A stretch of DNA of 64,000 nt from Candidatus Moraniibacteriota bacterium (GCA_028695025.1 JAQVJV010000003.1:637-64636), one strand, 5' to 3'. Positions 4,238 to 30,684 are shown, numbered from the stretch's first letter. Notes: generated from the letters alone by a model not told the origin. Program-made: numbers and translations.

Positions 4238-4276
4238 TTTGTTTTTTATGCCATGTATTTTACATTTTATATGATT

Positions 4277-7360: not shown

Positions 7361-7592
7361 TCCAATATTTATATTATTTTAACAAAATTAATTTAAAATT
7401 CAAGTGCGTGGACTAAAATCGGGATACAATTAGAACTTATTCCAAAAATCGCTTTCGTGGCGAAAATCTTGAAAAATCTGCAGTGAGTATAGAATTTTTG
7501 AGATAATCCTCAACTTAGAACAATCGATTTACGGGCATTGAACATCCTGTATCGTTTCTCACCAAATACCGGCAATCGGAGTTTTCCGATGG

Positions 7593-7967
7593 ATGCCCAA
7601 CTCTGGCAACGAAGCCAAGAAAATGGAGGCGGAGGTGGAAAAATATACAGGCATCATCAGAAAAGTTTTCATGGACAGTAAAGCGGACGATCAAGGTATG
7701 TATTTCAATATGAAGAAGAATTACCGGATTCAATTGGTGACGAAACCCAGAAAAAACATGAACAAATCCGAATCCAGAAAACGGATGATAGGGGAAATAC
7801 TGACAATCAGAAATATTAATGATTACAAAGAATGTTCTGTTACAATTGAGCCAATGCAGGGACTGACTAAAAATATATTCGAACTGGATAATTGTTGGAT
7901 GAGAGGCAATAGCAGTAATCGCTGGGTATTCGCCGCCATGGGAATTGCAATGCAGATGTCGCAATGA
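7593..7967 (+). CDS. Hypothetical small protein (only plus-strand candidate in a minus-strand block)
   Basis: A 124-aa ORF with protein-like composition. The overlapping minus-strand ORF (7515..7988) is His/Cys/Phe-rich and looks non-coding. No RBS and no recognisable domain, so this call is weak. Confidence 0.3.
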   Translation: MPNSGNEAKKMEAEVEKYTGIIRKVFMDSKADDQGMYFNMKKNYRIQLVTKPRKNMNKSESRKRMIGEILTIRNINDYKECSVTIEPMQGLTKNIFELDNCWMRGNSSNRWVFAAMGIAMQMSQ

Positions 7968-8120
7968 AAAGCTTACCGGAATAATCAATCAACATTTAAT
8001 GTTAAATCGGATGTGTTAGAGATTTAGAGACTCCCCGACCCGTCAGCTAAATAAACGTAAAAATATATTTGCTTATCGAAAAATCGCCCTGCAAGAATCT
8101 GGGGAGTAGGCCCATCTTGA

Positions 8121-13577: not shown

Positions 13578-13617
13578 ACCAAAAAAATTGGGCTTTTGCC
13601 TTTCTTGGATTATATCA

Positions 13618-13650
13618 CGAAAAAAAGAGTCCGGGAAGGCTCTTTTTTCT
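13618..13650 (-). terminator. Intrinsic terminator (A-tract / stem / T-tract) downstream of the 577-aa gene
   Basis: GAAAAAAAGAGtccgggaaggCTCTTTTTTCT is seen in the sequence; on the minus strand the hairpin is followed by TTTTTTT. A TATAAT-like -10 for the 1818-aa gene lies just beyond it at about 13607..13616. Confidence 0.45.
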
Positions 13651-13720
13651 AGGTTTAAAGGCTAAATTCCAAAGACTAAAGCGATGAAGCATAAAGTCAA
13701 CAACTTTGGCCTTTTCGTTG

Positions 13721-15310: not shown

Positions 15311-15425
15311 TTTTTTATTTTTAAGGTTATAAAAGAAATTATAAAAAAAACCTTGTTGCAGATATCTTCTCCCGGCAGGAATGATTTTTTTTCTCTTCGG
15401 ATCCATATTCTGTTTTAAATTATTT

Positions 15426-15917
15426 TTATTTTTTCTCTCCTGCGATGAAATCAACTTCTTCTTCCCGAAATTTTCCGACCAGACCCAACACGTCCGCCTT
15501 GCTGACTATCCCAAGCAACTTTTTGTTTTCATCCACGACGGGAATAGGGTTGACTTTTTTTTCCTGGATAAGCCTGATAAGGTTGGTCACCTTTTCATCC
15601 GGCCGGATCGTGACCGCGTCAATCGACATTATGGAGGAAGCGTCAGCCGATAAGATCTCTTTCAAATTACCAGCTTTCTCCGGGAAATACTTGGAAATTT
15701 TAAGATCTTCCAAAATTTTTATGAGCGACGGGATATGCAATTTCTCAAAATCCCGGGTAAGAAAGTCGTTTTCAGTTATCATCCCGACCAATGCGCCGTC
15801 CTCAACCACGGGAATTCCGCGAAAATTATGATCAATCATCATCTTCGCCACTTCACTGATTTTCGTTTTTGGATCGACCGAAACCACCTCCTTGGTCATT
15901 ATGTCTTCTACTTTCAT
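15426..15917 (-). CDS. CBS-domain pair protein
   Basis: Two CBS modules (…EVVSVDPKTKISEVAKMMIDHNFRGIPVVEDGALVGMITENDFL… and …IMSIDAVTIRPDEKVTNLIRLIQEKKVNPIPVVDENKKLLGIVSKADVL…). Confidence 0.8.
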   Translation of the reverse strand: MKVEDIMTKEVVSVDPKTKISEVAKMMIDHNFRGIPVVEDGALVGMITENDFLTRDFEKLHIPSLIKILEDLKISKYFPEKAGNLKEILSADASSIMSIDAVTIRPDEKVTNLIRLIQEKKVNPIPVVDENKKLLGIVSKADVLGLVGKFREEEVDFIAGEKK

Positions 15918-16032
15918 AAAAAATCTCCTATTGATTTATTATAGCACAAACGCAATCATTCCGTCATTCAGAGTCTGTTAAAAATCTCTTTTTTGGAATT
16001 TGCGGCAGAATACGAAGATTCTGAACAGGCTC

Positions 16033-19298: not shown

Positions 19299-22200
19299 TT
19301 ACTTCTCCTCCACGATAAACCAACTGAATTTGATGTCTTGTGCAATAGCTTCCAAAACGTTTACTGAAAATTCTCCCGTGAGCCTCCCTGTTTCCGCATC
19401 GCGGATTTTTTCGATCCAATAGCGGCTCCCGGGATCGCCCTCGAAGCTCACGAAGATTTTGGCTGTTTCCGTCACCGCCGCAGTCTCCACACGCGCGCTT
19501 TTTCCGTCTACTTTCGTGATATCATCCCAACCGTCATTGTCATCATCTTTTTTTACTGAAAGAACAGTTCCGTCTCCCACTGTTGGCGCGTCCTCGTCGT
19601 TTTTCACCGAATAGGCTCCCGCCACCGTTTCATCCGCTTTCACTTTTTCAGCCTGGACAACTTTGGCTTCGAACAATCCGGCGAGCTTCACGTTTCCGTC
19701 TTCGTCGGTTGTCACGATATTCTCCGGAATCTCCCCGCCTGCCGTGACAGTCATTGTCGCCAATTTGTCCTCAAGATCCTTGATACGATCTTCGTGGTCA
19801 AACACCCGCGCGGTGAGTGTTTTTTCCGTTTCGATCATGGCGCCCAAAGTATCGTTCACCGATGTTTCAAAAGCGAGCAGATTATTTTCGCTTTCAGTGA
19901 GCCTTGTTTCAGCATCGGCAAGTTGAGATTGGAGAGTTGAAATTTGCAACTGCTGGTCGCTGATCGCCGTACCGACTATATTCAATTTATCATTCACCGC
20001 CGTCTGCAGTTCCGCTACGCTGGTTGACTGGCTTTCAATTTGCAACTGCTGGTCGCTGATCGTTGATCCTTGTTCGTTGATCATCGCCTGCTGTTCCTGT
20101 ATCGCCTTTGTGAGCATCGGCGTGAACATGGCATAGCTCAAACCTTTGTATCCGCTAGCGTTGGTGGAAACAAGTTCCGGTGAAATTTTTTCCACGTCCT
20201 GCGCGATGAACCCGGCATGGAGAGGGTCGGAACTATCCTCGCTCTTCATGTGGAAAGTCACCGGATCAAGCGCCATCACCTTGTCGAGCGCGGAATCCAT
20301 GGACTCGATATCTTTTTTCATCCGTACGTCGGAAGTGCTTCCCCAAGTTCCGTCAGAAGTGACGACATAACCCGTCGCTGTTCCGGTATATACTTCGAGT
20401 TTGTAGCCCGGGGCAGTCGTCCCGATGCCGACATTGCCAGCGAAATAGTTTTTATTTGAAGAAGAATATTGATAAACGCCCCAAGTGTTTGTGCCTCCGA
20501 TTGAATCAATATACAGTCCATAGCTATTTGTCACGGTGCCTGTGGCAGAAACACGCGCATATAAAGCTCGCGCATCAGAGATTGTCCCTCCTGATCCTTG
20601 CTGTTCAATATTTCCCACTACTCCATAAGCATTATTTACCGTTCCTGATGTATGAGTTCCGATTACGTAACCTCTTACTCCGGTTATTGAAGTAGCGGTA
20701 TATCCTGCCGGGTTCGTAACAACACCATCAAGTGCCCATAAATTTAGGGCATGTCCATTTTGATTTGAATAATTTGTAGCATTAGCCCTAAATGAAACTG
20801 CGTAATGATCGCCTGTCAACGTTCCTGAAGTTTTAAGGTCGCTGACGGTCAGAAATCGGCTTGCGCTTGAAATATCCACACTATTATCATTTACATACAG
20901 TTTTGCCCCCGGAGTCGTCGTCCCTATCCCCACATTCCCGGAAGTTGCCTGTATCATTGCTCCAAGTGCTGCCGAATTGCTAACGCGAAAATAAATGTCT
21001 GAGGCTGATCTCAACGTCACATCGTCTGATGCCCCCCCTGTAGTTCCGATAAGATCAGAAGATCCAATTAATCCTGAATTTGTTTCCCCGCTGTTCAATA
21101 GTAAATAGGAGTCAAATCGGCTTGTGCCGTTGACATGAAGAAGTCTTTGCGGATTCGTCGTCCCTATCCCCACATTCCCCTGCAATATGGTCTTCGTGAT
21201 CGAGGTGTTTCCGAGGGTTACGGAGTTGCTTCCCGCCCCGATGGCGGAAGCTCCGATGACGATTTCATTCGTGTCCCCGTCGGCGAGGGCTCTCGTGTCA
21301 TATCCGAGATAGAGAGAACTGTAGGAAGTCTGGTTGTTTCCCCCGCCGGAGATGTATCTTCCGGAATAATATCCCAGGGCGGTGTTATTGTATCCGGTGG
21401 TGTTGGAGTAGAGGGAATTCACTCCCAGGGCGGTGTTATTGTATCCGGTGGTGTTGTATTGGAGGGAATTCACTCCCAGGGCGGTGTTATAGTATCCGGT
21501 GGTGTTGGAGTAGAGGGAATTTACTCCCAGAGCAACATTTTGGTATCCGGTGGTGTTGGAGTAGAGGGAACTTGTTCCCAGAGAGGTGTTCGAGTATCCA
21601 GTGGTGTTGGAGTAGAGGGATTGATATCCCAGGGCGGTGTTATTGTATCCGGTGGTGTTGGAGTAGAGGGAATTCACTCCCAGGGCGGTGTTATTGTATC
21701 CGGTGGTGTTGCAGTAGAGGGAATATGTTCCCAGAGCGGTATTAGAGTATCCGGTGGTGTTGCAGTAGAGGGATTGATATCCCAGGGCGGTGTTATTGTA
21801 TCCGGTGGTGTTGTATCTTCCGCCGTATCTTCCGATGAAAGTGTTTGCTAAACTGGCCGTTGACGAGCGGATTTCCAGGGCGGAAGTCCCCGTGCTGTCG
21901 TTCAAGACGTAGGTCGGGCTGTATGTTCCGGTGATCCTTTTTATGGAAATGACAATGGTCCCGTTGAAGTCGGAGGTCGGGGTGATGGAAAGGGTTCCGG
22001 TTCCGGTGGCTTTCGGCCCCCATGTCCCGGTGGAATACAAACCGCCCTTGCTTTCCGAACCGAAAGAGATGGTGAATGTTCCAGCCGTCCTTCCGGTGAC
22101 GGTATAGGATATTTGGTAGAGATAATTTGTGGTGGGAACAACGGTGGTATCGGTGAGGGCGTCCGTGTATCCTGTCGTATGGGTGAATCCGCTGGCGAAG

Positions 22201-25200
22201 TCTCCCGTCCAGTTAGTGGTTCCCCAAGTGTCTCCCGCGGAAAGGAGTTCCGAAGAAAGAGGGGCGGATTCATAGGAAGAGGTGGACTGCATGGTGAGGA
22301 GAGCGGTCGGGCTTGTGGTGCCGATGCCGACGTTCGTTCCATTGTTGAAAAGGTTTCCGGTGGGTGTCCATTGGGTGGTGGAATTGTTCCAATAGAGGGT
22401 TTGTCCTGTATAGGTTCCGGCTTGGGTGATGGCGACAGAGGTTCCTCCGATTGAGAGGTTGGTGGCGTTGATGGTTCCGTTGACGTTCAGGCGATATGTT
22501 CCGATTGCGGTGGTTCCGATTCCCACGTTGGTTCCGTTGTCATATATCGATCCGGTGGAAAGGGTATTGGTTCCGTTCCATCGGGCGACATAGTTTGCAA
22601 GTCCCGTTCCCACGACGGCGGTTCCCGAGGTTCCGACCGAGAGGGTGTTTGATCCTAGGGTAAGGGTTCCGGTGCCTGTTGTGATTGTGTTTCCGTTGTA
22701 GGTTCCTCCCGTCACGTTGCCGGAGGAGGAAACGGTGAAGACATCGGCACCGATCACAAATTTGGAAGTTGGATTCGTCGTTCCTATCCCCACATTCCCC
22801 GAGGAATTCACGGTAACCACCGGAGCTCCGCCAGTGGCTCCCACTCCCAGATTGAAGCGACTGTTAGTCGCGTCGTAGCTCATCCAGGTTTCAGCGGCGG
22901 CGGAGGCGCCGAGGTGAATAGTGTCGCCCCCGAGCCATAGGTTAGCAAAGCGGTAGGAGTTCGATCCGAGATCATAGGTATCATTGGTCATCGGCGTGAT
23001 CGTTTGCGATTGTGCAGAATCGTTGAGAATGACGTAGCCGGAATTTGCCGCAGAGAGATAAAGATTTAAGTTCTCACTCGCCGACTCCGTCTGGATATAT
23101 CCCGGACCGTTGAATTTGATGTATCCAGCGGTGGTGTTAGTCATGTAGAAATCATAGGCCATGGAAACATCTCCCATCGAATTGAAGGTGGTCGGGACGT
23201 TGAAGATGGCTTGAGATGAGCTCACGGTGAGAAGATCAGTGCCGGCGTAGTTCAAGGTGAGAAGATTTCCGGTTCCGTCGCTTCGGACATAGAGGCCGGC
23301 GGCGGCCGCGTTGGTGGAGGAGTTGTAGAAATATCCGATGTAGTCGGAAACTGATCCGCGGGTGTCGAAAATATGGGTCGGGTTGGTGTTTCCTATTCCA
23401 ACATTTCCTCCGCGGGTGACGTTGAGAACTGCCGCGGTATCACCGCGAACTTCAAAAAGTGAGGATGGGCTGGTGGTGCCGATTCCCACATTTCCGGTTG
23501 TCGCCGAGACAAAGAACGGTGTCGTGGCTCCGATCCCGACTTGGAAAAGTCCGGTCGGGCTCGTCGTCCCGATCCCCACGTTCGTTCCATTGTTGAAAAG
23601 GTTTCCCGTGGGTGTCCATTGGGTGGTGGAATTGTTCCAATAGAGGGTTTGTCCGGTATAGGTTCCCGCGGTGGTGAGGGCGAGGGCGGTTCCGTTCATA
23701 TAATAGGAAGCGGCGTTGAGGGAACCGTTGACGTTCAGTTTGTAGGTTCCGACTGATGTGGTGCCGATTCCCACATTCGTCCCGTTGTCATATATCGATC
23801 CGATGGAGAGGGTGTTCGCGTCTGTCCATCTGGCGAGATAGTTTTGGGTTCCGGTTCCAAGAGCCGCGGTTCCTGTTGCGGGAATTGTGAGGGTGTAGGA
23901 CCCCGTGTTAATCGTTCCCGATCCGGAGAGAGTGACGCCGTTGTAGGTCGTGGCATACATTCCCCCGTTCACTTCGAGTTTGTAGTTGGGGTTGGTGGTG
24001 CCGATGCCGACATTGCCTCTAAAATAACTGTTTATTCCGCCGTAGTCCATTCCAATTCTTGCAACTTCTGTATTGGAGCTACCACCAGTAAACTGTAGAC
24101 CGTGGAAGGAACGAAAAATTGCGTTACTTCCATAGGTAGTTTCAATTTTATTATACGAATCCCCTCCATATTGGAAATTCACTGTGTGACCAGAAGTTAA
24201 GCCGCTTATCCCCCAAATCCTGCCATTTGCTGACTGAACAAGTAAATCCCCATTGACAAAAAGTTTGGCACTTGGCGAAGCGCTACCGATTCCTACATTT
24301 GTTCCGTTGTCATATATAACACCGGAAGAAATGGTGTTGGTTCCGGTCCAGCGAGTGACATAGTTTGCAAGTCCCGTTCCCACGGCGGCGGTTCCCGAGG
24401 TTCCGACCGAGAGGGTGTTTGATCCCAGGGTGAGGGTTCCGGTGCCTGTTGTGATTGTGTTTCCGTTGTAGGTTCCTCCCGTCACATTGCCGGAGGAGTT
24501 CACCTGGAATTGGGAAGTGGCACCCACGGAGAGGAGAGCGAGAGGGTTTGTTGTCCCAATTCCGACACTTCCACCGCTTAATATTGTAAGTCTCTCAGAA
24601 ACTCCGCTTTCGACTATATTAAAACTATTATTAGAATCATATCTGTTCATATGCCATTCATTGGCTCCGTTGTCCTTAAATACCAAGCCTTGGTCAGCAA
24701 CACTGTCTATTGCGATATTCCCGTCATATACATGTAATCTTTCACTAGGACTAGATGTCCCGATTCCAACATTGCCGGAAGCAACATTTACTGACAACCA
24801 TTCAATCGGATCGGGTGTGGCTGCAGCATTATAGATAGCGACATTACCCGTACTATCGAGATAACCAACAGCTCCCTTATCTGTTCCGTTTGTTTTGAAA
24901 CGTAATGTGCTTTCACCTCCCGTGCCAGTCGTGTCAATAGTCACATAGGTTGAAGCATTAGTCGCTTTGAATCTTGCGACTCCAATGCCAGTAATATGAA
25001 CTCCGAAAACATCGAGTTTTGTATTCGGACTCGTCGTCCCGATCCCCACGTTGGTTCCGTTGAAGTAGAAGTTGTCGCTTCCGGTGATGATGCCTTGGCC
25101 GGAGAAGTATGATACCTGGTATTGGCTCCCCGTTCCTCCGGCGACATAGTCAGTGCCGGCTGTGGCGGTGGAAAGGGCTCCGGTGCCGGTGGTGACTTTC

Positions 25201-28200
25201 AAGAGTCCCGTGGAAAGGGCGGAACTGACATAGGCTTGGGCGGTGTCGGCGCTCACCGTGGAACCGGAGATGGTGAGGGCAGTGAAGTTTCCGGTTCCGT
25301 TCACGTTCAGCTTGTAGGTTCCGACCGAAGTGGTGCCGATTCCCACGTTGGTTCCGTTGTCATAGATGACAGAACTTGAGATAGCACTGGTTCCATTTCC
25401 TTTGAGGAGATAATTGGAAGAGAAGGTTCCGGCTCCCGTGCCTCCCTGGGAAACATTGAGGTATTGCTGGGAAGTTATGGAGTTGGTTCCGTTCCAGACA
25501 GCTACATAGCCGTTGGTTCCGGTTCCAGTGACAGGATTGGTAAGAGCCGTTTGGAAGTATGAGGCATCGTGTCCTTGGAGATAGTTAGCGTTTAAATTGG
25601 TTATCTCGGTGGAATTGAGGACGGTGAAAGGGGCTCCGGAGTTGTAGTTGAAGGATAGCTGGTTTGTTGTTGATGCCCCTCTTCCGGTGACTGTTGCCAG
25701 GGTGTCAGCTTCTGTTGCGGTAATGGTAAGAGTATCCCCGGAGATTGCCGTTGTGGCTATTCCTCCACCATTGATGGTGAGAGTGTCGGTGGTTGAATTG
25801 GCAGTGGTGTTTCCAGATTGGGAGTTGATGGTGGCCCAGAGGTTTTGGTCTCCGGTGTTGGCGCCGGAGGAACTGCCGGTAAAGTTGGCGGCGGTGATGT
25901 TTCCGGTGAACTCTCCATTTCCTCCCACAGTGAGATTAGAGATGATGTTCGCGCTCCCTCCGATTCTCACATTTCCGGCGACATCAAGTTTCTGGCTCGG
26001 ATTCGTCGTCCCTATCCCCACATTCGTCCCATCATTGAAGAGATTGGCGTTGGCTGTCCAAGCCGATCCGTTCCAATAGAGGGTTTGGCCGGTGATTGAT
26101 CCGTTGGCAGGAAGTCCGGTGGCCAGGGTTCCTGCGGTATATAGACCGTTGGTAAAAGTAAGTCCTCCTGTTGTTTGGGAAGCTCCCGCTGTTCCTCCGG
26201 CATAGTATCCGGTAGCGTTCAAGCTTCCGTTCACGTTTACTCGGTAGGTTCCCACTCCGGTCGTCCCGATCCCCACGTTGGTTCCGTTGAAGTAGAAGTT
26301 GTCGCTTCCGGTGATGATGCCTTGGCCGGAGAAGTATGATACCTGGTATTGGCTCCCCGTTCCTCCGGCGACATAGTCAGTGCCGGCTGTGGCGGTGGAA
26401 AGGGCTCCGGTGCCGGTGGTGACTTTCAAGAGTCCCGTGGAAAGGGCGGAACTGACATAGGCTTGGGCGGTGTCGGCGCTCACCGTGGAACCGGAGATGG
26501 TGAGGGCAGTGAAGTTTCCGGTTCCGTTCACGTTCAGCTTGTAGGTTCCGACCGAAGTGGTGCCGATTCCCACGTTGGTTCCGTTGTCATAGATGACAGA
26601 ACTTGAGATAGCACTGGTTCCATTTCCTTTGAGGAGATAATTGGAAGAGAAGGTTCCGGCTCCCGTGCCTCCCTGGGAAACATTGAGGTATTGCTGGGAA
26701 GTTATGGAGTTGGTTCCGTTCCAGACAGCTACATAGCCGTTGGTTCCGGTTCCAGTGACAGGATTGGTAAGAGCCGTTTGGAAGTATGAGGCATCGTGTC
26801 CTTGGAGATAGTTAGCGTTTAAATTGGTTATCTCGGTGGAATTGAGGACGGTGAAAGGGGCTCCGGAGTTGTAGTTGAAGGATAGCTGGTTTGTTGTTGA
26901 TGCCCCTCTTCCGGTGACTGTTGCCAGGGTGTCAGCTTCTGTTGCGGTAATGGTAAGAGTATCCCCGGAGATTGCCGTTGTGGCTATTCCTCCACCATTG
27001 ATGGTGAGAGTGTCGGTGGTTGAATTGGCAGTGGTGTTTCCAGATTGGGAGTTGATGGTGGCCCAGAGGTTTTGGTCTCCGGTGTTGGCGCCGGAGATAC
27101 TCGCATTTCCCGCCAAAGTGAAGGTGTATGATCCCGAACCTGTCACAATCGTTCCGTTTCCGGAAAGGGTTACTCCGTTATACGTCGCGGCCGTCACCGC
27201 TCCCGCGTTTGTCACCTGGAACTGGTTGGCCGTCCCGACCGCGAGGCCATTGGTCCCGTCCGTCGGGAAAATAGCCCCCCCTGCTAGGCTCCAGATCGTT
27301 CCCGGCCCCCCGCTTGAGATGGCCGTATCCAGATCAGCCAGCACTTCCTGGACGTTCGCGGAGCTTGAGTTCGTGAACCCGCCAGTGAAGGCTCCGACCA
27401 TGTACGCGCCCGAATCGATGGCACTCGTCGCTTCCCCTAGCGACGTGGTTCCGCCGAAGATAAGATTATTCGATGAATTAATATTAATGTTACCGTTTGC
27501 GGTGATATCCGTGAAAGTAGGGCTTGCAACTGTATTGAGTGTGAGACTGATCCCTCCGCCAGCCGTACCGGTTCCTCCGCCGGTGAGATTTCCGGCCGTG
27601 TTCACGACAATCGGAGTAGAACCTTCCGCGACCGTGTTGTTGCTCGAGCCATAGACCGGAGAAATGGTGAGTGTGTTTAAATTGCGGGAAGTCGCGATTC
27701 CGTCGGCGCCCTCGAAGATCGCGCCTTTCTTGGTTTTGATCTGCACTCCGGCATCGGTGGCGGATGTCTGAAGTTTCCAGGAAACATAGTTATCATAATC
27801 CCCTGCCGCCTGATAGTTTCCCGCGGCTTGGAAATAGCTCGCCTTGTGCCCGCCCAAAAGTTCCGCGTTGAGATTCACGTTCAATATCCCGTTCGAAAGC
27901 GGTATGCTTCCGGCGGCGTTCCCGATCGTCTGGCCGGCAATGTTCATGGCCGTGCGTGCGAGCGGCACCGCGCCGATCCTTTTTCGGGGAATCATTTCCG
28001 CATCCTCTCCAACCCGGATGCCGACAAAATAGTTTTCGGCAGCGAAATTCAAATTGGGAAGCGGATTTGCTTCGCCGAGATAAACATCAAGAAGTCCGTT
28101 TTCGACCGCAACCTTTCGGGTTTCTTCCCAAATGCGCGTTCCGGCATCAGTGTCGGAAGGATACGGATCGCTTTCGGTCCGGTCAGCCGTATATATGGAA

Positions 28201-29447
28201 AAGCGGACATCGTATTCTCCGTTGGTGAGTTCCTTGTTCTGGCTGTCCATCAAGTAGGCGGATATTTCGATGTCACCCGGATGCGCTTCAAGGATTTGAT
28301 CGCCGGTTTCGGCCGCTAAGACCAAACCTTTATTGTTTTCCTGTCCACTGCCGCCGGAAGTTTCAGATAATTCATTCACAGCCTCAACTCCCGCGACTTG
28401 TCCCTTGTCCTCTTCATTACTGCCGGTAAGACGCAAACCTGACTTCTCTTCAAACTCTTGTACTTTCTGATGGCGGAACGCATCCTTCGCAAGTTCCGCG
28501 AACTTGTCGGCGCCTACTTTCAGCTGATCCACATTTTCTGCGACCTGGCTTCCCGCAAAACCAGCGACTTTGGAAAGCGCATCCACCCCGCGGTTATATG
28601 AAGCGTAAATTTTTTTCTCGCCCAGGTTTTCCCAATAGGCGAGATCCTTTGAAGTTATGTTACCGACTGCCATCAAAACGACCAGTAAGATGAAAGCCAA
28701 AGCCGGTTTCAAATTGTTGGATGAAAATTCCCGCAGGCTCGCCGACTCGATTTTTTTTCTCAAATCGAACTTCCTGATATTGATCTTATTGGGTTCCCCG
28801 ATCTTGGAAAGTTTAGAAAAACTTTTCTTGATCCCGGCCAGCGCTCCCGCGGACAACCGGCGCAACTCTTCCCAAACAATATCACCTTGAACTTCGCCCC
28901 GGTTTTCGGAAACGGTTTTTTCAATTTCAGCCGGTCCGGAAACAACGCTTCCTTTCTTTTCCGCCTCATCCGTTTTTGCGATTTTGGCGGCGGGCGCTTC
29001 CTTGGGAGAGTTGAGGGAAATGGAATCGCTTTTCAAGAATTCTCTCAACTCCGCTTTTCTTGCCTCGACTTCATCAACCGCGGCTTCCGGAATGGAAATT
29101 TCTTTTGCCGAAATTTTTTCTTCTTTCTTCTCCGCCGCACCTTCTTTTCCGCCGAGTTCTTTCGAAAGCCTTTCTTTGTATTTTTTCTTTTTTTCCTGGG
29201 ACGCTTTTGTGAACTCATTAAGCCATTCTTCGGTCGTATGCCATACGCCTTTTATTTTCTCCGCCTTGAGTTTCCCCTGCCGCGCGGAAAAGTTTATGTA
29301 GTTTTTCGAGTACGCTGAAGTCTTCGCGATTTCAGATAGCGGGATAAAATTCGTCTCTTGTCCGTCTTTTTCAGAAAGCAAAAAACGGCCCTTTTCGGAA
29401 GCGTTTTTGGAATTGATTTTCGGTTTTTTTGTTTCTGTCTTTTTCAT
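19299..29447 (-). CDS. 3382-aa membrane-anchored giant tail-fibre-like protein: cytoplasmic HTH_17 (excisionase-family) N-terminus, single TM, phage-tail-fibre repeat arrays, C-terminal Peptidase_S74 intramolecular chaperone domain and coiled coil
   Basis: The N-terminus FIPLSEIAKTSAYSKNYINFSARQGKLKAEKIKGVWHTTEEWLNEF fits the HTH_17 consensus (…GeL.a.kiGgrWri…). A TM helix follows at LKPALAFILLVVLMAVGN. The extracellular part has dozens of NGTNVGIGTT(S/N)P…L.V.G repeats plus a block of 20-aa NTTGYNNTALGxxSLYS repeats (Phage_fiber_2-like). The C-terminal SDVRMKKDIESMDSALDKVMALDPVTFHMK…HAGFIAQDVEKISPELV matches the S74 autoproteolytic chaperone, followed by a Q-rich coiled coil. Confidence 0.85.
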   Translation of the reverse strand: MKKTETKKPKINSKNASEKGRFLLSEKDGQETNFIPLSEIAKTSAYSKNYINFSARQGKLKAEKIKGVWHTTEEWLNEFTKASQEKKKKYKERLSKELGGKEGAAEKKEEKISAKEISIPEAAVDEVEARKAELREFLKSDSISLNSPKEAPAAKIAKTDEAEKKGSVVSGPAEIEKTVSENRGEVQGDIVWEELRRLSAGALAGIKKSFSKLSKIGEPNKINIRKFDLRKKIESASLREFSSNNLKPALAFILLVVLMAVGNITSKDLAYWENLGEKKIYASYNRGVDALSKVAGFAGSQVAENVDQLKVGADKFAELAKDAFRHQKVQEFEEKSGLRLTGSNEEDKGQVAGVEAVNELSETSGGSGQENNKGLVLAAETGDQILEAHPGDIEISAYLMDSQNKELTNGEYDVRFSIYTADRTESDPYPSDTDAGTRIWEETRKVAVENGLLDVYLGEANPLPNLNFAAENYFVGIRVGEDAEMIPRKRIGAVPLARTAMNIAGQTIGNAAGSIPLSNGILNVNLNAELLGGHKASYFQAAGNYQAAGDYDNYVSWKLQTSATDAGVQIKTKKGAIFEGADGIATSRNLNTLTISPVYGSSNNTVAEGSTPIVVNTAGNLTGGGTGTAGGGISLTLNTVASPTFTDITANGNININSSNNLIFGGTTSLGEATSAIDSGAYMVGAFTGGFTNSSSANVQEVLADLDTAISSGGPGTIWSLAGGAIFPTDGTNGLAVGTANQFQVTNAGAVTAATYNGVTLSGNGTIVTGSGSYTFTLAGNASISGANTGDQNLWATINSQSGNTTANSTTDTLTINGGGIATTAISGDTLTITATEADTLATVTGRGASTTNQLSFNYNSGAPFTVLNSTEITNLNANYLQGHDASYFQTALTNPVTGTGTNGYVAVWNGTNSITSQQYLNVSQGGTGAGTFSSNYLLKGNGTSAISSSVIYDNGTNVGIGTTSVGTYKLNVNGTGNFTALTISGSTVSADTAQAYVSSALSTGLLKVTTGTGALSTATAGTDYVAGGTGSQYQVSYFSGQGIITGSDNFYFNGTNVGIGTTGVGTYRVNVNGSLNATGYYAGGTAGASQTTGGLTFTNGLYTAGTLATGLPANGSITGQTLYWNGSAWTANANLFNDGTNVGIGTTNPSQKLDVAGNVRIGGSANIISNLTVGGNGEFTGNITAANFTGSSSGANTGDQNLWATINSQSGNTTANSTTDTLTINGGGIATTAISGDTLTITATEADTLATVTGRGASTTNQLSFNYNSGAPFTVLNSTEITNLNANYLQGHDASYFQTALTNPVTGTGTNGYVAVWNGTNSITSQQYLNVSQGGTGAGTFSSNYLLKGNGTSAISSSVIYDNGTNVGIGTTSVGTYKLNVNGTGNFTALTISGSTVSADTAQAYVSSALSTGLLKVTTGTGALSTATAGTDYVAGGTGSQYQVSYFSGQGIITGSDNFYFNGTNVGIGTTSPNTKLDVFGVHITGIGVARFKATNASTYVTIDTTGTGGESTLRFKTNGTDKGAVGYLDSTGNVAIYNAAATPDPIEWLSVNVASGNVGIGTSSPSERLHVYDGNIAIDSVADQGLVFKDNGANEWHMNRYDSNNSFNIVESGVSERLTILSGGSVGIGTTNPLALLSVGATSQFQVNSSGNVTGGTYNGNTITTGTGTLTLGSNTLSVGTSGTAAVGTGLANYVTRWTGTNTISSGVIYDNGTNVGIGSASPSAKLFVNGDLLVQSANGRIWGISGLTSGHTVNFQYGGDSYNKIETTYGSNAIFRSFHGLQFTGGSSNTEVARIGMDYGGINSYFRGNVGIGTTNPNYKLEVNGGMYATTYNGVTLSGSGTINTGSYTLTIPATGTAALGTGTQNYLARWTDANTLSIGSIYDNGTNVGIGTTSVGTYKLNVNGSLNAASYYMNGTALALTTAGTYTGQTLYWNNSTTQWTPTGNLFNNGTNVGIGTTSPTGLFQVGIGATTPFFVSATTGNVGIGTTSPSSLFEVRGDTAAVLNVTRGGNVGIGNTNPTHIFDTRGSVSDYIGYFYNSSTNAAAAGLYVRSDGTGNLLTLNYAGTDLLTVSSSQAIFNVPTTFNSMGDVSMAYDFYMTNTTAGYIKFNGPGYIQTESASENLNLYLSAANSGYVILNDSAQSQTITPMTNDTYDLGSNSYRFANLWLGGDTIHLGASAAAETWMSYDATNSRFNLGVGATGGAPVVTVNSSGNVGIGTTNPTSKFVIGADVFTVSSSGNVTGGTYNGNTITTGTGTLTLGSNTLSVGTSGTAVVGTGLANYVARWNGTNTLSTGSIYDNGTNVGIGTTAIGTYRLNVNGTINATNLSIGGTSVAITQAGTYTGQTLYWNNSTTQWTPTGNLFNNGTNVGIGTTSPTALLTMQSTSSYESAPLSSELLSAGDTWGTTNWTGDFASGFTHTTGYTDALTDTTVVPTTNYLYQISYTVTGRTAGTFTISFGSESKGGLYSTGTWGPKATGTGTLSITPTSDFNGTIVISIKRITGTYSPTYVLNDSTGTSALEIRSSTASLANTFIGRYGGRYNTTGYNNTALGYQSLYCNTTGYSNTALGTYSLYCNTTGYNNTALGVNSLYSNTTGYNNTALGYQSLYSNTTGYSNTSLGTSSLYSNTTGYQNVALGVNSLYSNTTGYYNTALGVNSLQYNTTGYNNTALGVNSLYSNTTGYNNTALGYYSGRYISGGGNNQTSYSSLYLGYDTRALADGDTNEIVIGASAIGAGSNSVTLGNTSITKTILQGNVGIGTTNPQRLLHVNGTSRFDSYLLLNSGETNSGLIGSSDLIGTTGGASDDVTLRSASDIYFRVSNSAALGAMIQATSGNVGIGTTTPGAKLYVNDNSVDISSASRFLTVSDLKTSGTLTGDHYAVSFRANATNYSNQNGHALNLWALDGVVTNPAGYTATSITGVRGYVIGTHTSGTVNNAYGVVGNIEQQGSGGTISDARALYARVSATGTVTNSYGLYIDSIGGTNTWGVYQYSSSNKNYFAGNVGIGTTAPGYKLEVYTGTATGYVVTSDGTWGSTSDVRMKKDIESMDSALDKVMALDPVTFHMKSEDSSDPLHAGFIAQDVEKISPELVSTNASGYKGLSYAMFTPMLTKAIQEQQAMINEQGSTISDQQLQIESQSTSVAELQTAVNDKLNIVGTAISDQQLQISTLQSQLADAETRLTESENNLLAFETSVNDTLGAMIETEKTLTARVFDHEDRIKDLEDKLATMTVTAGGEIPENIVTTDEDGNVKLAGLFEAKVVQAEKVKADETVAGAYSVKNDEDAPTVGDGTVLSVKKDDDNDGWDDITKVDGKSARVETAAVTETAKIFVSFEGDPGSRYWIEKIRDAETGRLTGEFSVNVLEAIAQDIKFSWFIVEEK
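21365..21835. repeat. Tandem 60-bp repeat, ~8 copies, encoding 20-aa Phage_fiber_2-like units (NTTGYNNTALGxxSLYS)
   Basis: Seen in the sequence: units of TCCCAGGGCGGTGTTATTGTATCCGGTGGTGTTGGAGTAGAGGGAATTCAC with minor variation. It lies inside the giant gene, is in frame, and has no spacers. Confidence 0.8.
25036..25880. repeat. Copy 1 of a ~845-bp perfect direct repeat inside the giant gene (period 1227 bp)
   Basis: Identical nucleotide blocks at 25036..25880 and 26263..27107. Encoded peptides in the ORF track, including antisense ones, are identical (for example 25122..25379 equals 26349..26606). Confidence 0.8.
26263..27107. repeat. Copy 2 of the ~845-bp perfect direct repeat inside the giant gene
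   Basis: See copy 1. On the minus strand both copies encode GANTGDQNLWATINSQSGNTTANSTTDTLTINGGGIATTAISGDTLTITATEADTLATVTGRGASTTNQLSFNYNSGAPFTVLNSTEITNLNANYLQGHDASYFQ…. Confidence 0.8.
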
Positions 29448-29747
29448 CCCTTGTTAATTCCCTTTTTTATCAGATTTAACCGCTGTATTTATTGGAAAAA
29501 TCGCCTTTTTCTTTTTTATTTTTATTCCCCAGTTTTTTGCGGCTGTTATTTGCTTTATATAAGAGATATAACACTTTATATAATAATTATATTTTTACTA
29601 AAAAATGGCGCAAATGATTTCGCAAAAAGACAGCCTCTTTTTTTAATACAAACCAATTTAGTGAAATTAGCGTATTTGGTTATTGTTTTTCTGGAAAATT
29701 ATTTCTTATTTTTATAAAATTTTAATAATATTTACTTAAGTAAAATA

Positions 29748-29795
29748 AAAACCGATATTTATTTTATATCGATCTTTTTCAAAAATATCGGTTTT
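29748..29795 (-). terminator. Perfect 13-bp inverted repeat (AAAACCGATATTT … AAATATCGGTTTT) flanked by A/T runs, between the ABC operon and the giant gene; candidate terminator or operator
   Basis: Seen in the sequence. The stem is AT-rich, so stability is modest, and it sits in a ~590-bp AT-rich region upstream of the giant gene. Confidence 0.3.
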
Positions 29796-29960
29796 TATTA
29801 AAACACTACTTATCGGATTTCTTATATTTTATTTTATTTATAATTTCGGAGAAACAACCCATCTGATATTTCTATAAAAAATTATTTGCTACAAAAAAAT
29901 TTTGTCAAATCGCCTCAAAAAAATTCGCCGGGAAATATAGTTATCCACAGTTAATTTCAG

Positions 29961-30033
29961 CGAACAGTGAAGAAAGATCGATGAACAATATTTCGCGATT
30001 GATCACTGTTCGCTGATCATTGTTCATCGATCG
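29961..30033 (-). promoter_or_regulatory. Two interleaved perfect inverted repeats immediately 3' of the 216-aa gene stop (CGAACAGTGA/TCACTGTTCG and GATCGATGAACAAT/ATTGTTCATCGATC)
   Basis: Seen in the sequence. The arms are arranged A1-B1-A2-B2, so the hairpins are mutually exclusive or form a pseudoknot. They abut the stop at 30034, and no clean U-tract follows. Confidence 0.3.
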
Positions 30034-30684
30034 TTATCTCTTCGCCCAGCCGAACATCTGGCCGAAAGCGTCGCTCAAAAGATCGAAGATGGAAACGTTC
30101 GGCGCTCCGGTATAGAAAGCGAGCTTTCCGGATTCCGCAAAATTCCCCCATTTGTCTTTTGCGTTCACGACATATGAGTAGGAAGTGCTGTAATTCAATT
30201 TGGTTATTTCGGCGCTATGCACGAATCCATAACCGTCTTCGGAAATTATTTTTCCCTCCGTCTGCCCTTCGCGCATATACTCGATCGAAGAGAGGCACGG
30301 CTTGTTGGTCGTCCAGCTCAAAAGGAACCGGACTTCTTCATCTGTTTTGGTCATCAAAAGTTCTGAGCGCAAATCTTCGATTTCGGGAGCGAGCGACTGC
30401 TGGCCTGACGGAACCGTAATGGCCGCTCCTCCGAAATTGATGTGCGGCGTCCGGAAGTTTTCACTTGAAAAAGAATTTGTCGCATTTTGATTCTCCTCTT
30501 CGCCCAAGACGGATCCGCTCGGACTTTGCTCGTTTGAAATACTGGCCGTTTCCACGTTCGTTTTCTTCTCAATATATTTTGAATAAAGGTACGGAGAAAA
30601 ATATCCGAGTGAAAATATGATCGTGGCCAGGAGCGCGTATTTTGAAAATTTTTTTAATTTCATAAATCCTGAATTATAAATCAA
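30034..30684 (-). CDS. Membrane-anchored small secreted protein with a purple-acid-phosphatase-N-terminal-like (FN3) domain
   Basis: N-terminal anchor KYALLATIIFSLGYF. The C-terminal VRFLLSWTTNKPCLSSIEYMREGQTEGKI…HSAEITKLNYSTSYSYVV resembles the Pur_ac_phosph_N beta-sandwich. The start may be the internal Met (MKLKKF…). Confidence 0.6.
   Translation of the reverse strand: MIYNSGFMKLKKFSKYALLATIIFSLGYFSPYLYSKYIEKKTNVETASISNEQSPSGSVLGEEENQNATNSFSSENFRTPHINFGGAAITVPSGQQSLAPEIEDLRSELLMTKTDEEVRFLLSWTTNKPCLSSIEYMREGQTEGKIISEDGYGFVHSAEITKLNYSTSYSYVVNAKDKWGNFAESGKLAFYTGAPNVSIFDLLSDAFGQMFGWAKR

What the first reader, a model, noticed from the sequence alone, without database searches (positions are those of the whole stretch)
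29200..29447. Excisionase/MerR-type HTH at the extreme N-terminus of a 3382-aa surface protein
Reported separately because it is the least expected module. HTH_17 domains normally occur in ~60-100-aa excisionase / Xis-like DNA-binding proteins. Here one is fused, with no intervening stop, to a Lys/Glu-rich cytoplasmic linker, a TM helix and a giant extracellular fibre.
Basis: partly seen in the sequence, partly recalled or inferred. Interest (0 to 1): 0.6.

Follow-up and report, generated by a model that had tools for sequence, protein, structure and literature searches.

The report
Cytoplasmic excisionase-type HTH anchoring giant fibre
The first ~100 codons of a 3382-residue surface-fibre gene of a tiny candidate-phyla (Moraniibacteriota) bacterium encode a real, strongly conserved excisionase-type DNA-binding fold that stays inside the cell, and the same module heads thousands of other membrane-anchored surface proteins in these bacteria, with no described function.

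Summary
ORF 19299..29447(-) is uninterrupted (3382 aa), with a TAA three codons upstream of its ATG. The window sequence gives no Pfam HTH_17 or NCBIfam hit of its own. However, a profile of homologues built without it matches aa 25-112 at E 1.5e-14. 81/121 and 61/78 of those homologues hit HTH_17. AlphaFold gives a confident winged helix (pLDDT 85-93) whose best fold match is a phage excisionase (1.4 A). The HTH is the best-conserved part of the protein: 74-76% identity to orthologues, against 14-28% in the linker, with mainly third-codon-position changes. One TM helix (aa 246-265) follows, then a tail-fibre-like body and a C-terminal Peptidase_S74 chaperone. The fusion is not a one-off. In nearly all full-length family members examined, 1-3 N-terminal copies precede a single TM helix and ectodomains of up to 6890 aa. 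Three other proteins combine the HTH, a TM helix and S74. In 25/80 species-level loci the family gene follows ftsW/rodA. Best reading: a shared cytoplasmic docking module, most likely DNA-binding. A RodZ-like protein adaptor is the main rival. Function is inferred, not shown.

The parts
19299..29447 (-). Complete gene: 3382-aa bitopic surface-fibre protein
   Evidence: A single ORF with ATG start. A TAA lies 3 codons upstream. Orthologues are colinear over aa 2-711.
29358..29447 (-). Basic, disordered N-terminal tail (aa 1-30, net charge +5)
   Evidence: Composition. pLDDT 34-39. Most orthologues carry an extra ~90-200-aa conserved extension here, which the window protein and P0146/L003 lack.
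29148..29357 (-). Excisionase/MerR-class winged helix-turn-helix (aa 31-100; core b-a1-a2-wing aa 34-72 = nt 29232-29348; long helix a3 to aa 99)
   Evidence: Family profile 69.9 bits, E 1.5e-14. AF2 pLDDT 84-93. Fold matches to excisionases and MerR-type domains. 74-76% identity to orthologues, with substitutions mainly at the third codon position. No direct Pfam hit.
28713..29147 (-). Lys/Glu-rich cytoplasmic linker (aa 101-245), mostly disordered
   Evidence: K+R 22% and D+E 18% over aa 83-245. pLDDT 27-47, except one helix at aa 121-140. Only 14-28% identity to orthologues.
28653..28712 (-). Single transmembrane helix / signal anchor (aa 246-265), N-in C-out
   Evidence: It is the only strongly hydrophobic 19-mer in the protein: KD 2.17 against 1.04 for the next best. 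It is predicted helical at aa 247-261. Across the family, TM-flank net charge averages +2.2 on the N side and +0.4 on the C side.
28383..28652 (-). Juxtamembrane helical ectodomain (aa 266-355)
   Evidence: Helices at aa 275-336 with pLDDT ~70. 38-47% identity to orthologues.
20334..28271 (-). Fibre body (aa 393-3038): G/T/S/N-rich (51%), with 18 'N[VI]GIG[TSN]' motifs and internal repeats
   Evidence: Composition. Motif count. Repeats: 8 x 51 nt at 21321-21881, and a perfect 837-nt duplication, 25033-25869 = 26260-27096.
19299..20333 (-). C-terminal intramolecular-chaperone region (Peptidase_S74 at aa 3039-3093, starting at Ser3039 in 'S-D-V-R-M-K-K-D-I') plus acidic C-terminal part
   Evidence: Pfam PF13884, E 2.8e-16. 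Motif position. The same domain sits at the C-end of the HTH-bearing relatives P0034, P0117 and P0114.
29448..30033 (-). 586-nt AT-rich upstream region with elements conserved in four orthologous Moraniibacteriota loci
   Evidence: The conserved elements are:
- CTGTGGATAACT, which resembles a DnaA box, at -503.
- TTGACA-16-AATAAT at 29908-29881.
- A 17-bp hairpin plus T-run at 29744-29799.
- TTGCGC-16-TATAAT, with its -10 near -145.
- CAAAGCAAATAACAG at -109.
- An SD-like AAAGGGA.
Source.
30034..30684 (-). Upstream gene (216 aa; TM plus fn3-like ectodomain), last gene of an ABC-FtsX/MacB operon. Its ectodomain is homologous to that of HTH-TM proteins in other CPR lineages.
   Evidence: Pfam Pur_ac_phosph_N, 24 bits. 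33-43% identity, E 1e-35 to 1e-40, to the ectodomains of the HTH-TM proteins in L009, L010, L012, L016 and L031.

Best explanation
The gene encodes a type-II (N-in, C-out) single-pass membrane protein.

Cytoplasmic part. The N-terminal ~100 residues fold into an excisionase/MerR-class winged HTH that stays in the cytoplasm. A ~145-residue flexible K/E-rich linker joins it to one TM helix.

Outside part. Everything beyond the TM helix is a tail-fibre-like, presumably trimeric, surface fibre. Its C-terminal S74 intramolecular chaperone would drive trimerisation and then cut itself off at Ser3039.

Role of the HTH. It is the shared cytoplasmic docking module of a very large CPR family of bitopic surface proteins. 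I commit to this reading: the module binds DNA, either non-specifically or at a motif common to the whole family. It thereby ties the cytoplasmic foot of the fibre to the nucleoid, which in these ultra-small cells lies against the membrane. That would give the fibre an intracellular anchor, and possibly a contact-to-chromosome signalling route. It is not a gene-specific transcription factor and not a recombination directionality factor.

Shown: continuity of the ORF, homology, predicted fold, predicted topology, conservation, recurrence of the architecture.
Inferred: DNA as the ligand, trimerisation and self-cleavage, and the biological purpose.
For: Fold and homology to the HTH_17/TIGR01764 class. 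To my knowledge, the characterised members of that class (Xis, TorI, AlpA, BldC, TraN, MerR N-domains) bind DNA.

The family keeps the class signature R-x-G-K-L-x-A-x-K-x-G-R-x-W-x-T, with basic residues in helix 2 and the wing at 70-90% frequency.

Domain instances are basic: mean net charge +4.1 over 282 instances, about 90% of them positive.

Most relatives carry 2-3 tandem copies only ~62 residues apart start to start. That fits reading along a periodic polymer, as the internal dimer of TraN and the head-to-tail arrays of Xis/BldC do (my knowledge).

The module is always cytoplasmic. No hydrophobic segment precedes it in any of 154 proteins and 80 genomic loci. One TM helix follows in nearly all full-length members, and flank charges obey positive-inside.

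Strong purifying selection singles out the HTH within the protein.

The same HTH-TM-fibre-S74 build occurs in P0114, P0117 and P0034.
Against: No binding experiment exists and no DNA target was identified.

The window copy itself scores below every curated HTH model.

Foldseek E-values against PDB are weak (0.2-1) because the domain is short.

The putative recognition helix is nearly the same in paralogues with unrelated ectodomains. This argues against specific operators, and a single conserved protein partner would explain it equally well.

One subfamily sits directly behind ftsW/rodA in 25/80 loci. RodZ shows that an N-terminal HTH in exactly this topology can bind a cytoskeletal protein instead of DNA (my knowledge).

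It is not obvious what a cell gains by tying many surface proteins to its chromosome.

The 'near invariance' is partly a selection effect, because only the 150 best-scoring hits were examined.
Confidence: 0.4

Rival explanations
1. RodZ-like protein adaptor. The cytoplasmic HTH does not bind DNA. It docks onto a conserved cytoplasmic protein polymer or machine (MreB, FtsA/FtsZ, or the SEDS-bPBP wall synthase). This would position, or mechanically couple, the fibre and the other family ectodomains to the cytoskeleton or cell-wall machinery.
For: The topology is identical to RodZ: N-terminal cytoplasmic HTH, basic linker, one TM helix, outside domain (RodZ from my knowledge).

In 25 of 80 species-level loci the family gene lies immediately downstream, on the same strand, of an FtsW/RodA/SpoVE gene (PF01098, E 1e-85 to 1e-87).

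Helix 2 is almost invariant across paralogues with unrelated ectodomains, as expected for one common partner.

The rodA-adjacent subfamily carries a short conserved linker motif, PP(E/K)NLP(V/I), which looks like a peptide-docking site.

MerR-like folds can bind proteins: CbpM appears among the fold hits.
Against: The HTH is of the HTH_17 class, not the Xre class of RodZ. No member hits the RodZ-type Pfam families.

The window gene is not next to a SEDS or mre gene; its neighbours are ABC-FtsX/MacB and surface proteins.

The basic charge and the retained DNA-binding signature need no such explanation.

The adjacency could be inherited synteny within one CPR subgroup.
Confidence: 0.3
2. Topogenic or export element only. 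The small, fast-folding, positively charged domain forces N-in orientation of the signal anchor. Alternatively it is the n-region of an extended cleavable signal peptide, as in the long leader peptides of giant Gram-positive adhesins. In either case it has no ligand of its own. After signal-peptidase cleavage the fibre would be released or held by other means.
For: The hydrophobic stretch of the window subfamily is short: 15 uncharged residues, or 19 if N, I, T and S are counted. It is followed by A-V-G|N, a possible signal-peptidase site. Positive-inside bias is present. The ectodomains are unrelated to one another, so the module acts as a generic N-terminal cassette.
Against: A mere stopper would not keep surface-exposed basic and aromatic residues at 70-90% frequency across phyla. 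Nor would it be the best-conserved segment of the protein.

Family TM segments have a median of 20 uncharged residues, which fits anchors rather than signal peptides, and the -3/-1 rule is not met in several orthologues.

NCBIfam models, which include the KxYKxGKxW signal-peptide model (my recollection of its accession: TIGR03715), gave no hit at E<=1.

Tandem duplication of a stopper has no clear rationale.
Confidence: 0.13
3. ToxR/CadC-type one-component regulator. The fibre is a sensor of host contact, and the tethered HTH binds a specific operator, for example in its own conserved upstream region, to switch particular genes.
For: It has the same N-in HTH-TM-sensor topology as ToxR, CadC and VtrA (my knowledge).

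The 586-nt upstream region carries several blocks conserved across five loci at fixed distances. These include CAAAGCAAATAACAG downstream of a TATAAT promoter and could be operators.
Against: The recognition helix barely varies among paralogues with different ectodomains, unlike families of specific regulators.

A 3100-residue fibre is an implausible allosteric transmitter through a single TM helix and a disordered 145-residue linker.

The HTH class differs from the OmpR-type of ToxR.
Confidence: 0.12
4. Artefact. A missed stop, a frameshift or an assembly chimera joins a small HTH gene to the fibre gene.
For: The gene contains a perfect 837-nt repeat that could mislead assemblers. In two related contigs (L001, L002) the gene is split into many ORFs.
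Against: The frame is open throughout.

L001 and L002 also split their housekeeping genes (MetRS, ABC, FtsX), which indicates an error-prone assembly.

At least six independent assemblies keep HTH, linker, TM and ectodomain in one frame.

Nearly all full-length members among the 150 cluster representatives examined and the 80 genomic loci show the same fusion.

The repeat lies 1.5 kb or more from the N-terminal region.
Confidence: 0.02

Closest known systems
Excisionase-family / HTH_17 DNA-binding domains (Pfam PF12728, TIGR01764; e.g. Tn916 Xis, TorI, AlpA, BldC)
   Same: Same fold class (b-a-a-wing) and the same signature, R.G.L.A.K.G..W. Most family members match the profiles. The best structural match is a phage excisionase at 1.4 A.
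   Different: It is not a 60-100-aa free protein. No recombinase or mobile element is nearby. It is tethered to the membrane. The window copy is too divergent to hit the curated models.
RodZ (bitopic cell-shape protein; cytoplasmic HTH binds MreB)
   Same: N-terminal cytoplasmic HTH, charged linker, one TM helix and a variable outside domain. A family subgroup is encoded next to rodA/ftsW in 25/80 loci.
   Different: The HTH is of a different class (HTH_17, not Xre-type). There is no DUF4115-type outside domain. The window gene is not in a rod/divisome context. The partner is unknown.
ToxR / CadC / VtrA membrane-bound one-component regulators
   Same: Predicted N-in DNA-binding domain, single TM helix, extracytoplasmic domain.
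   Different: Those use an OmpR-type winged helix and compact periplasmic sensors. Here the HTH is excisionase-type, often in tandem, and the outside part can be a fibre of several thousand residues. The near-invariant helix 2 argues against specific operators.
Phage tail fibres/spikes with C-terminal intramolecular chaperone (Peptidase_S74; endosialidase, T5 L-shaped fibre)
   Same: A C-terminal S74 domain beginning at the conserved Ser (S-D-x-R-x-K), and a long repetitive G/T/S/N-rich shaft.
   Different: The N-terminal virion-attachment domain is replaced by a cytoplasmic HTH plus a TM anchor. The gene lies in a cellular chromosome among housekeeping genes.
TraN of Enterococcus pIP501 (two tandem excisionase-like domains forming an internal dimer on DNA) and RacA (MerR-like wHTH that tethers the chromosome to the cell pole)
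   Same: Both appear among the fold matches. TraN parallels the tandem copies seen in most family members. RacA parallels the idea of a DNA-to-envelope tether.
   Different: Neither is an integral membrane protein with an ectodomain. No sequence-level similarity was detectable.

Membership tests
HTH_17 / excisionase-family DNA-binding domain (PF12728, TIGR01764) | The sequence itself matches the curated profile above threshold | tested here: not met
   There is no hit for aa 1-300, aa 1-100, aa 32-83 or the whole protein, even at E<=10 (Pfam) or E<=1 (NCBIfam).
HTH_17 / excisionase-family DNA-binding domain (PF12728, TIGR01764) | Homology to bona fide members through an intermediate profile | tested here: met
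   A profile built without the window subfamily hits aa 25-112 at 69.9 bits, E 1.5e-14. 81/121 and 61/78 homologues match PF12728. P0004, P0006 and P0008 pass the TIGR01764 cut-off.
HTH_17 / excisionase-family DNA-binding domain (PF12728, TIGR01764) | Winged-helix fold: strand, helix-turn-helix, beta-hairpin wing | tested here: met
   AF2 gives pLDDT 84.6, with elements E14-15, H16-22, H27-36, E42-44, E47-50 and H52-73. The same fold appears in the 420-aa model. Best fold match: BFVD excisionase, TM 0.67, rmsd 1.4 A.
HTH_17 / excisionase-family DNA-binding domain (PF12728, TIGR01764) | Binds DNA | not testable with these tools
   There is indirect support only: basic charge (+4.1 mean) and a retained basic wing.
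Excisionase (recombination directionality factor) as a protein | Small free protein encoded beside an integrase/recombinase in a mobile element | tested here: not met
   The protein is 3382 aa and membrane-anchored. Its neighbours are an ABC transporter, FtsX/MacB, TatD, tRNA synthetases and surface proteins. No integrase or phage gene was found among the ORFs scanned. A few smaller window ORFs were not scanned.
MerR-family transcription regulators | wHTH followed by a dimerising coiled coil and a C-terminal effector-binding domain; match to MerR/MerR_1 | tested here: not met
   Only 1 of 78 relatives touches MerR_1 (E 6e-4), and the window protein does not. After helix 3 comes a disordered linker and a TM helix.
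RodZ | N-terminal cytoplasmic HTH, single TM helix, external domain | tested here: met
   Hydropathy and charge bias. The architecture recurs across the 154 proteins and 80 loci examined.
RodZ | Xre-type HTH and RodZ C-terminal domain (sequence membership) | tested here: not met
   RodZ-type Pfam families are absent from the 25 most frequently matched families in the two family-wide scans (199 proteins). They are also absent from the individual scans.
RodZ | Genomic or functional link to the Rod/SEDS machinery; binds MreB | tested here: inconclusive
   25/80 family loci lie directly downstream of FtsW/RodA. The window gene does not. MreB binding is not testable here.
ToxR/CadC-type membrane-bound regulators | OmpR-type (Trans_reg_C) winged helix at the N-terminus | tested here: not met
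   There is no Trans_reg_C hit in the window protein or in the relatives scanned individually. It is also not among the most frequently matched families of the family-wide scans.
Tail-fibre/endosialidase-type proteins with an intramolecular chaperone | C-terminal Peptidase_S74 domain starting at the catalytic/cleavage Ser | tested here: met
   PF13884, E 2.8e-16, aa 3039-3093. Ser3039 lies in 'TSDVRMKKDI'. Self-cleavage and trimerisation are not testable.
KxYKxGKxW-type extended signal peptides of giant Gram-positive adhesins | Match to the signal-peptide model; cleavable leader | tested here: not met
   The NCBIfam scan gave no hit at E<=1 for aa 1-300. I did not independently confirm that this model is in the copy searched. 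Cleavage itself is not testable.

The most novel reading that the evidence does not exclude
Candidate-phyla (Patescibacteria) bacteria possess a lineage-wide system in which surface adhesins, fibres and wall-associated proteins all carry the same cytoplasmic excisionase-type HTH. That HTH physically couples them to one intracellular polymer, either the chromosome or the actin/tubulin-like cytoskeleton. This would give these minimal epibionts a direct outside-to-nucleoid (or outside-to-cytoskeleton) link for host-contact sensing, for placing surface organelles, or for chromosome-envelope tethering, in place of the classical signalling systems they largely lack.
Probability: 0.3. Interest if true: 0.8.

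Novelty: new variant of a known kind. Interest (0 to 1): 0.58.

Why it matters
Giant surface proteins of CPR/Patescibacteria are prime candidates for host attachment, yet how they are anchored and whether they signal inward is unknown. This analysis shows that the N-terminal HTH is not an annotation curiosity. It is the most conserved part of the fibre, and it defines a family with at least ~1600 distinct cluster representatives. That family includes proteins of up to 6890 residues and a subgroup encoded next to the cell-wall polymerase gene ftsW/rodA. The result is a concrete, cheap experiment: find what a ~70-residue soluble domain binds. The answer could explain how many CPR surface proteins are organised. 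I found no paper describing this architecture. The search covered only open-access full text, so this is absence of evidence, not proof of novelty.

Tried and rejected
- Direct Pfam and NCBIfam scans of the window N-terminus gave no HTH model hit.
- Profile searches of PDB sequences with A1 and A2 gave nothing meaningful.
- A genome-contig scan with the single protein gave 412 pattern matches but no relative.
- Alignment A2 was too diverse for pattern design. A1 worked.
- Eight literature searches found no description of the architecture. The terms were HTH_17 + CPR; Patescibacteria + HTH + TM + giant; HTH_17 + transmembrane; excisionase + Saccharibacteria; CPR + giant + tail fiber; excisionase family + Parcubacteria; membrane-anchored N-terminal HTH; RodZ + Patescibacteria. 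One paper, PMC13059738, notes only that very large patescibacterial proteins tend to be surface-targeted.
- Rfam on the upstream region gave only sub-threshold chance hits.
- Prophage or excisionase context was rejected, because the neighbours are housekeeping and surface-protein genes.
- A second copy of the module in the window was sought by a six-frame motif scan. Only the one copy was found.
- The idea that single-copy HTH correlates with trimeric S74 fibres was rejected. By the family profile, P0034, P0114 and P0117 each have two copies.
- The short (<110 aa) 'stand-alone' homologues are mostly truncated or frameshifted fragments, so they say nothing about free forms.

Full report
**1. 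What is in the sequence**

The minus-strand ORF 19299..29447 is a single open frame of 3382 codons beginning with ATG. An in-frame TAA lies three codons upstream, so the N-terminus cannot be longer. Before residue 300 the only Met codons are M1 and M259, and M259 lies inside the hydrophobic segment.

The protein has exactly one strongly hydrophobic 19-mer, at aa 246-264 with Kyte-Doolittle 2.17. The next best in the protein scores 1.04. Upstream of it lies a basic and acidic, Lys/Glu-rich stretch (K+R 22%, D+E 18% for aa 83-245). Downstream lie ~2600 residues that are 51% Gly/Thr/Ser/Asn. GC content drifts smoothly through the 5' end of the gene with no break.

**2. Is the N-terminus an HTH_17?**

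Pfam and NCBIfam give no HTH hit for aa 1-300, aa 1-100, aa 32-83 or the whole protein, even at permissive thresholds. The only Pfam domain of the whole protein is Peptidase_S74 at aa 3039-3093 (E 2.8e-16).

The indirect evidence is nevertheless strong.
- A search with aa 1-342 found seven relatives. Three of them carry PF12728 above the gathering score (38, 36 and 28 bits).
- A 56-position profile of the module (A1) finds 4660 cluster representatives (50% identity clusters) at E<=1e-3 and 1592 at E<=1e-10.
- 81 of 121 short members and 61 of 78 mid-sized members match HTH_17 (best E 1.2e-10 and 1.7e-13). P0004, P0006 and P0008 pass the TIGR01764 'excise' cut-off.
- A profile built without the window protein and its near-identical relative hits window aa 25-112 at 69.9 bits, E 1.5e-14 for a 1.8-billion-sequence search space.
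- AlphaFold2 with the 121-sequence alignment predicts strand, helix, helix, beta-hairpin, long helix with mean pLDDT 84.6. The same domain is the only confidently folded cytoplasmic element in a model of aa 1-420 (pLDDT 84-93; linker 27-47).
- Foldseek against PDB gives weak E-values (0.2-1), as expected for a 74-residue query. Its best-fitting hits are all MerR-class winged helices: CueR (prob 0.90, 2.4 A over 55 residues), HiNmlR, TraN, CarH, BldC, RacA and GlnR.
- Against predicted viral structures the top hit is an 'excisionase family' protein (TM 0.67, rmsd 1.4 A, 27% identity, prob 1.0). Next come mycobacteriophage Excise, PrtN and AlpA-like proteins.

I conclude that aa 31-100 (nt 29148-29357) is a divergent member of the excisionase/HTH_17 fold class.

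**3. Is the fusion real?**

Reads are not available, but several independent lines of evidence agree.
- Orthologues from other assemblies are colinear with the window protein through HTH, linker, TM helix and ectodomain. These are P0270 and P0146 (Moranbacteria/Moraniibacteriota), P0271, and loci L003-L006. Identity is 42-50% over aa 2-711.
- Within these alignments the HTH is the best-conserved segment: 74-76% identity, against 14-28% in the linker and 38-47% just outside the membrane.
- At the DNA level, differences in the HTH fall mostly on third codon positions (for example 7/9/36). There are 18-26 synonymous codon changes in 67 codons. The region is therefore translated in this frame and under purifying selection.
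- Two syntenic contigs from one sample (L001, L002) split the gene into many ORFs. They also split MetRS, the ABC ATPase and FtsX, so those breaks are sequencing errors.
- The 586-nt upstream region aligns block by block with four orthologous loci, and the start codons coincide.

Most orthologues have an extra ~90-200-residue conserved segment before the HTH. The window protein and P0146/L003 lack it. 'Extreme N-terminus' is therefore true here but not for the whole subfamily.

**4. The family**

I examined the 150 best representatives plus the earlier hits. In these the module, present in 1-3 tandem copies (two is commonest; median start-to-start distance 62 residues), is never preceded by a hydrophobic segment. 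In nearly every protein of 230 residues or more it is followed by a single TM segment 20-150 residues later. The parts beyond the membrane range from about 100 to 6890 residues, and 12 proteins besides the window protein exceed 2000 aa.

The same holds in 80 species-level genomic loci; only four HTH-bearing ORFs lack a detectable TM segment. Record titles name Moraniibacteriota (closest, 67-81% identity in the HTH), Paceibacterota, Parcubacteria, Saccharibacteria, and Komeili-, Portnoy-, Nealson- and Gribaldobacteria. All of these belong to the Patescibacteria group. A few MAGs carry other taxonomic labels.

TM segments have a median of 20 uncharged residues. Flank charges average +2.2 on the N side and +0.4 on the C side, consistent with N-in signal anchors.

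The ectodomains are mostly without Pfam matches; a few have collagen or fn3-like domains. Three other proteins repeat the window's full build, with the module at the N-terminus, one TM segment and a C-terminal S74 domain:
- P0114: HTH_17 38.7 bits plus S74.
- P0117: HTH_17 24.8 bits, below the gathering score, plus S74.
- P0034: TIGR01764 at E 9e-4, below cut-off, plus S74 at 79.8 bits.

The cassette is modular. The gene just upstream of the fibre (30034-30684; TM plus fn3-like domain; last gene of an ABC-FtsX/MacB operon) is homologous to the ectodomain of HTH-TM proteins in other CPR lineages. In the window lineage it has no HTH.

**5. Context**

The window is an ordinary chromosomal region. 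It encodes an ATP synthase a subunit, MetRS, IleRS, a class II aminoacyl-tRNA synthetase, TatD, TGT, RecO, a glycosyltransferase and an AcrB-like pump. It also holds a run of large surface proteins with LamG, dockerin, Calx-beta and CHB_HEX_C domains. No integrase, recombinase or phage gene was found among the ORFs scanned, so this is not an excisionase in the functional sense.

Across the family, an all-against-all comparison of neighbouring ORFs gave an unexpected result. In 25 of 80 loci the HTH-TM gene lies immediately downstream, on the same strand, of an FtsW/RodA/SpoVE gene (PF01098, E 1e-85 to 1e-87). That gene is itself preceded by ligA and by three or four type-IV-pilin-like genes. 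That subgroup also carries a conserved PP(E/K)NLP(V/I) motif in its cytoplasmic linker. The window gene does not lie in that context.

**6. Mechanism**

Shown:
- a cytoplasmic, folded, basic, strongly conserved excisionase-class wHTH;
- a flexible linker;
- one signal-anchor helix;
- a tail-fibre-like ectodomain ending in an S74 intramolecular chaperone whose Pfam match starts at Ser3039 within S-D-V-R-M-K-K-D-I.

From what is established for S74 domains, I infer that the fibre trimerises from its C-terminus and sheds the chaperone. This would leave a trimer rooted in the cell membrane, with three HTH domains at its cytoplasmic foot.

For the HTH itself I favour DNA binding (confidence about 0.4). 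Four points support this:
- the class is, to my knowledge, DNA-binding wherever it has been characterised;
- the basic residues of helix 2 and the wing are retained at 70-90% frequency;
- domain instances average a net charge of +4.1;
- tightly spaced tandem copies suggest reading along a periodic polymer, as in TraN or Xis/BldC arrays.

Helix 2 is nearly the same in paralogues with unrelated ectodomains. I therefore expect non-specific binding or a common-motif ligand, a nucleoid tether, rather than gene-specific regulation.

The main rival (about 0.3) is a RodZ-like protein adaptor. It is supported by the identical topology, the rodA/ftsW adjacency of one subgroup, the linker motif and the invariance of helix 2. 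Less likely are a purely topogenic or cleaved-leader role (about 0.13) and a ToxR-like specific regulator (about 0.12). An artefact is very unlikely (about 0.02).

A caveat on 'invariance': only the 150 best-scoring family members were inspected, which biases them towards the consensus.

**7. Comparison with known systems and novelty**

At domain level this is a divergent HTH_17. At protein level it is neither an excisionase, a MerR regulator, RodZ nor ToxR; the defining features of each were tested and not met (see the membership table). In topology it works like the RodZ and ToxR class of bitopic proteins with an N-terminal cytoplasmic HTH. In its ectodomain it works like a phage tail fibre whose virion-binding end has been replaced by a membrane anchor.

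Eight full-text literature searches found no description of this architecture. I rate it a new variant of a known kind. It is moderately to quite interesting because the family is large, appears specific to this lineage on the names seen, includes the largest proteins of these organisms, and offers a simple decisive experiment.

Noticed in passing
window 30034-30684 (-); loci L009:5950-6999, L010:3502-4560, L012, L016, L031: The 216-aa gene upstream of the fibre has a TM segment and an fn3-like ectodomain ending in FGWAKR. It abuts the FtsX/MacB gene, so it is probably the last gene of an ABC-FtsX operon. It is homologous (33-43% identity, E 1e-35 to 1e-40) to the TM-plus-ectodomain part of HTH-TM proteins in other CPR lineages. 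The HTH cassette therefore sits on different ectodomains in different lineages.
   Followed up: partly
25 of 80 family loci, e.g. L025:772-6558, L050, L053, L011: A conserved gene string: 3-4 type-IV-pilin-like genes (N_methyl motif), NAD-dependent DNA ligase LigA, FtsW/RodA (SEDS, PF01098, E 1e-87), then the HTH-TM family gene. All lie on one strand. The ectodomain of the HTH-TM protein varies from 189 to more than 1300 aa.
   Followed up: partly
linkers of rodA-adjacent HTH-TM proteins (e.g. L047, L049, L055, L065, L079, L081; also P0007, P0162): A short conserved motif, PP(E/K)NLP(V/I), lies between the HTH and the TM helix. It looks like a peptide-docking site and is absent from the window protein.
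   Followed up: no
L037, L046, L048, L074, L081: Two HTH-TM genes lie side by side on the same strand: a small one (129-196 aa) followed by a large one (539 to more than 1800 aa).
   Followed up: no
window 25033-25869 and 26260-27096: A perfect 837-nt direct repeat inside the fibre gene, spaced 1227 nt (409 codons) apart and in frame. The copy number in the assembly, and hence the true protein length, is uncertain.
   Followed up: partly
window 21321-21881: Eight tandem 51-nt (17-residue) units, 70-84% identical, encoding NTTGYNNTALGxxSLYS-type repeats in the distal fibre.
   Followed up: no
window 29448-30033 (-); L003-L006 upstream regions: The long AT-rich (22% GC) upstream region keeps its layout in five loci. 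It holds CTGTGGATAACT at -503, which resembles a DnaA box and is present in 4 of 5 loci. It also holds TTGACA-16-AATAAT/A at about -461, a block AAATCCGAT, and a 17-bp hairpin plus T-run ending at about -299. Further on come a second promoter with a perfect TATAAT at about -145, CAAAGCAAATAACAG at -109 and an SD-like AAAGGGA. The first promoter plus hairpin could be a ~125-nt small RNA or an attenuator. Rfam finds nothing.
   Followed up: partly
orthologues P0270, P0271, P0001, P0002, L004-L006 (N-termini): Most orthologues have a conserved ~90-200-residue segment before the HTH (DIFFGKAGEVF..RLFL..K..KI..E.KA..R.KL.ELYG). It is deleted in the window protein and in P0146/L003.
   Followed up: no
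window aa 262-268 (about nt 28644-28664) and orthologues: Directly after the TM helix the subfamily conserves N-(I/F/A/V)-(T/S)-K-A-D-L, an N-x-S/T sequon-like motif at the outer membrane face. Its significance is unknown.
   Followed up: no
L001 and L002 (ENA ERZ25039477 contigs 68000 and 77810): These close syntenic relatives are riddled with frameshifts. MetRS, the ABC ATPase, FtsX and the fibre gene are all split. The short 'HTH-only' proteins from this sample, such as P0126, are therefore assembly artefacts.
   Followed up: yes
window 2195-18948 (-): Downstream of the fibre lies a run of large secreted or surface proteins: 971 aa (CHB_HEX_C/Fn3_assoc), 577 aa (fn3-like repeats), 1818 aa (five LamG, DUF2341), 1027 aa (Calx-beta, pectate-lyase-like, dockerin) and 680 aa (LamG, dockerin). 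Together they form a surface-protein island.
   Followed up: partly
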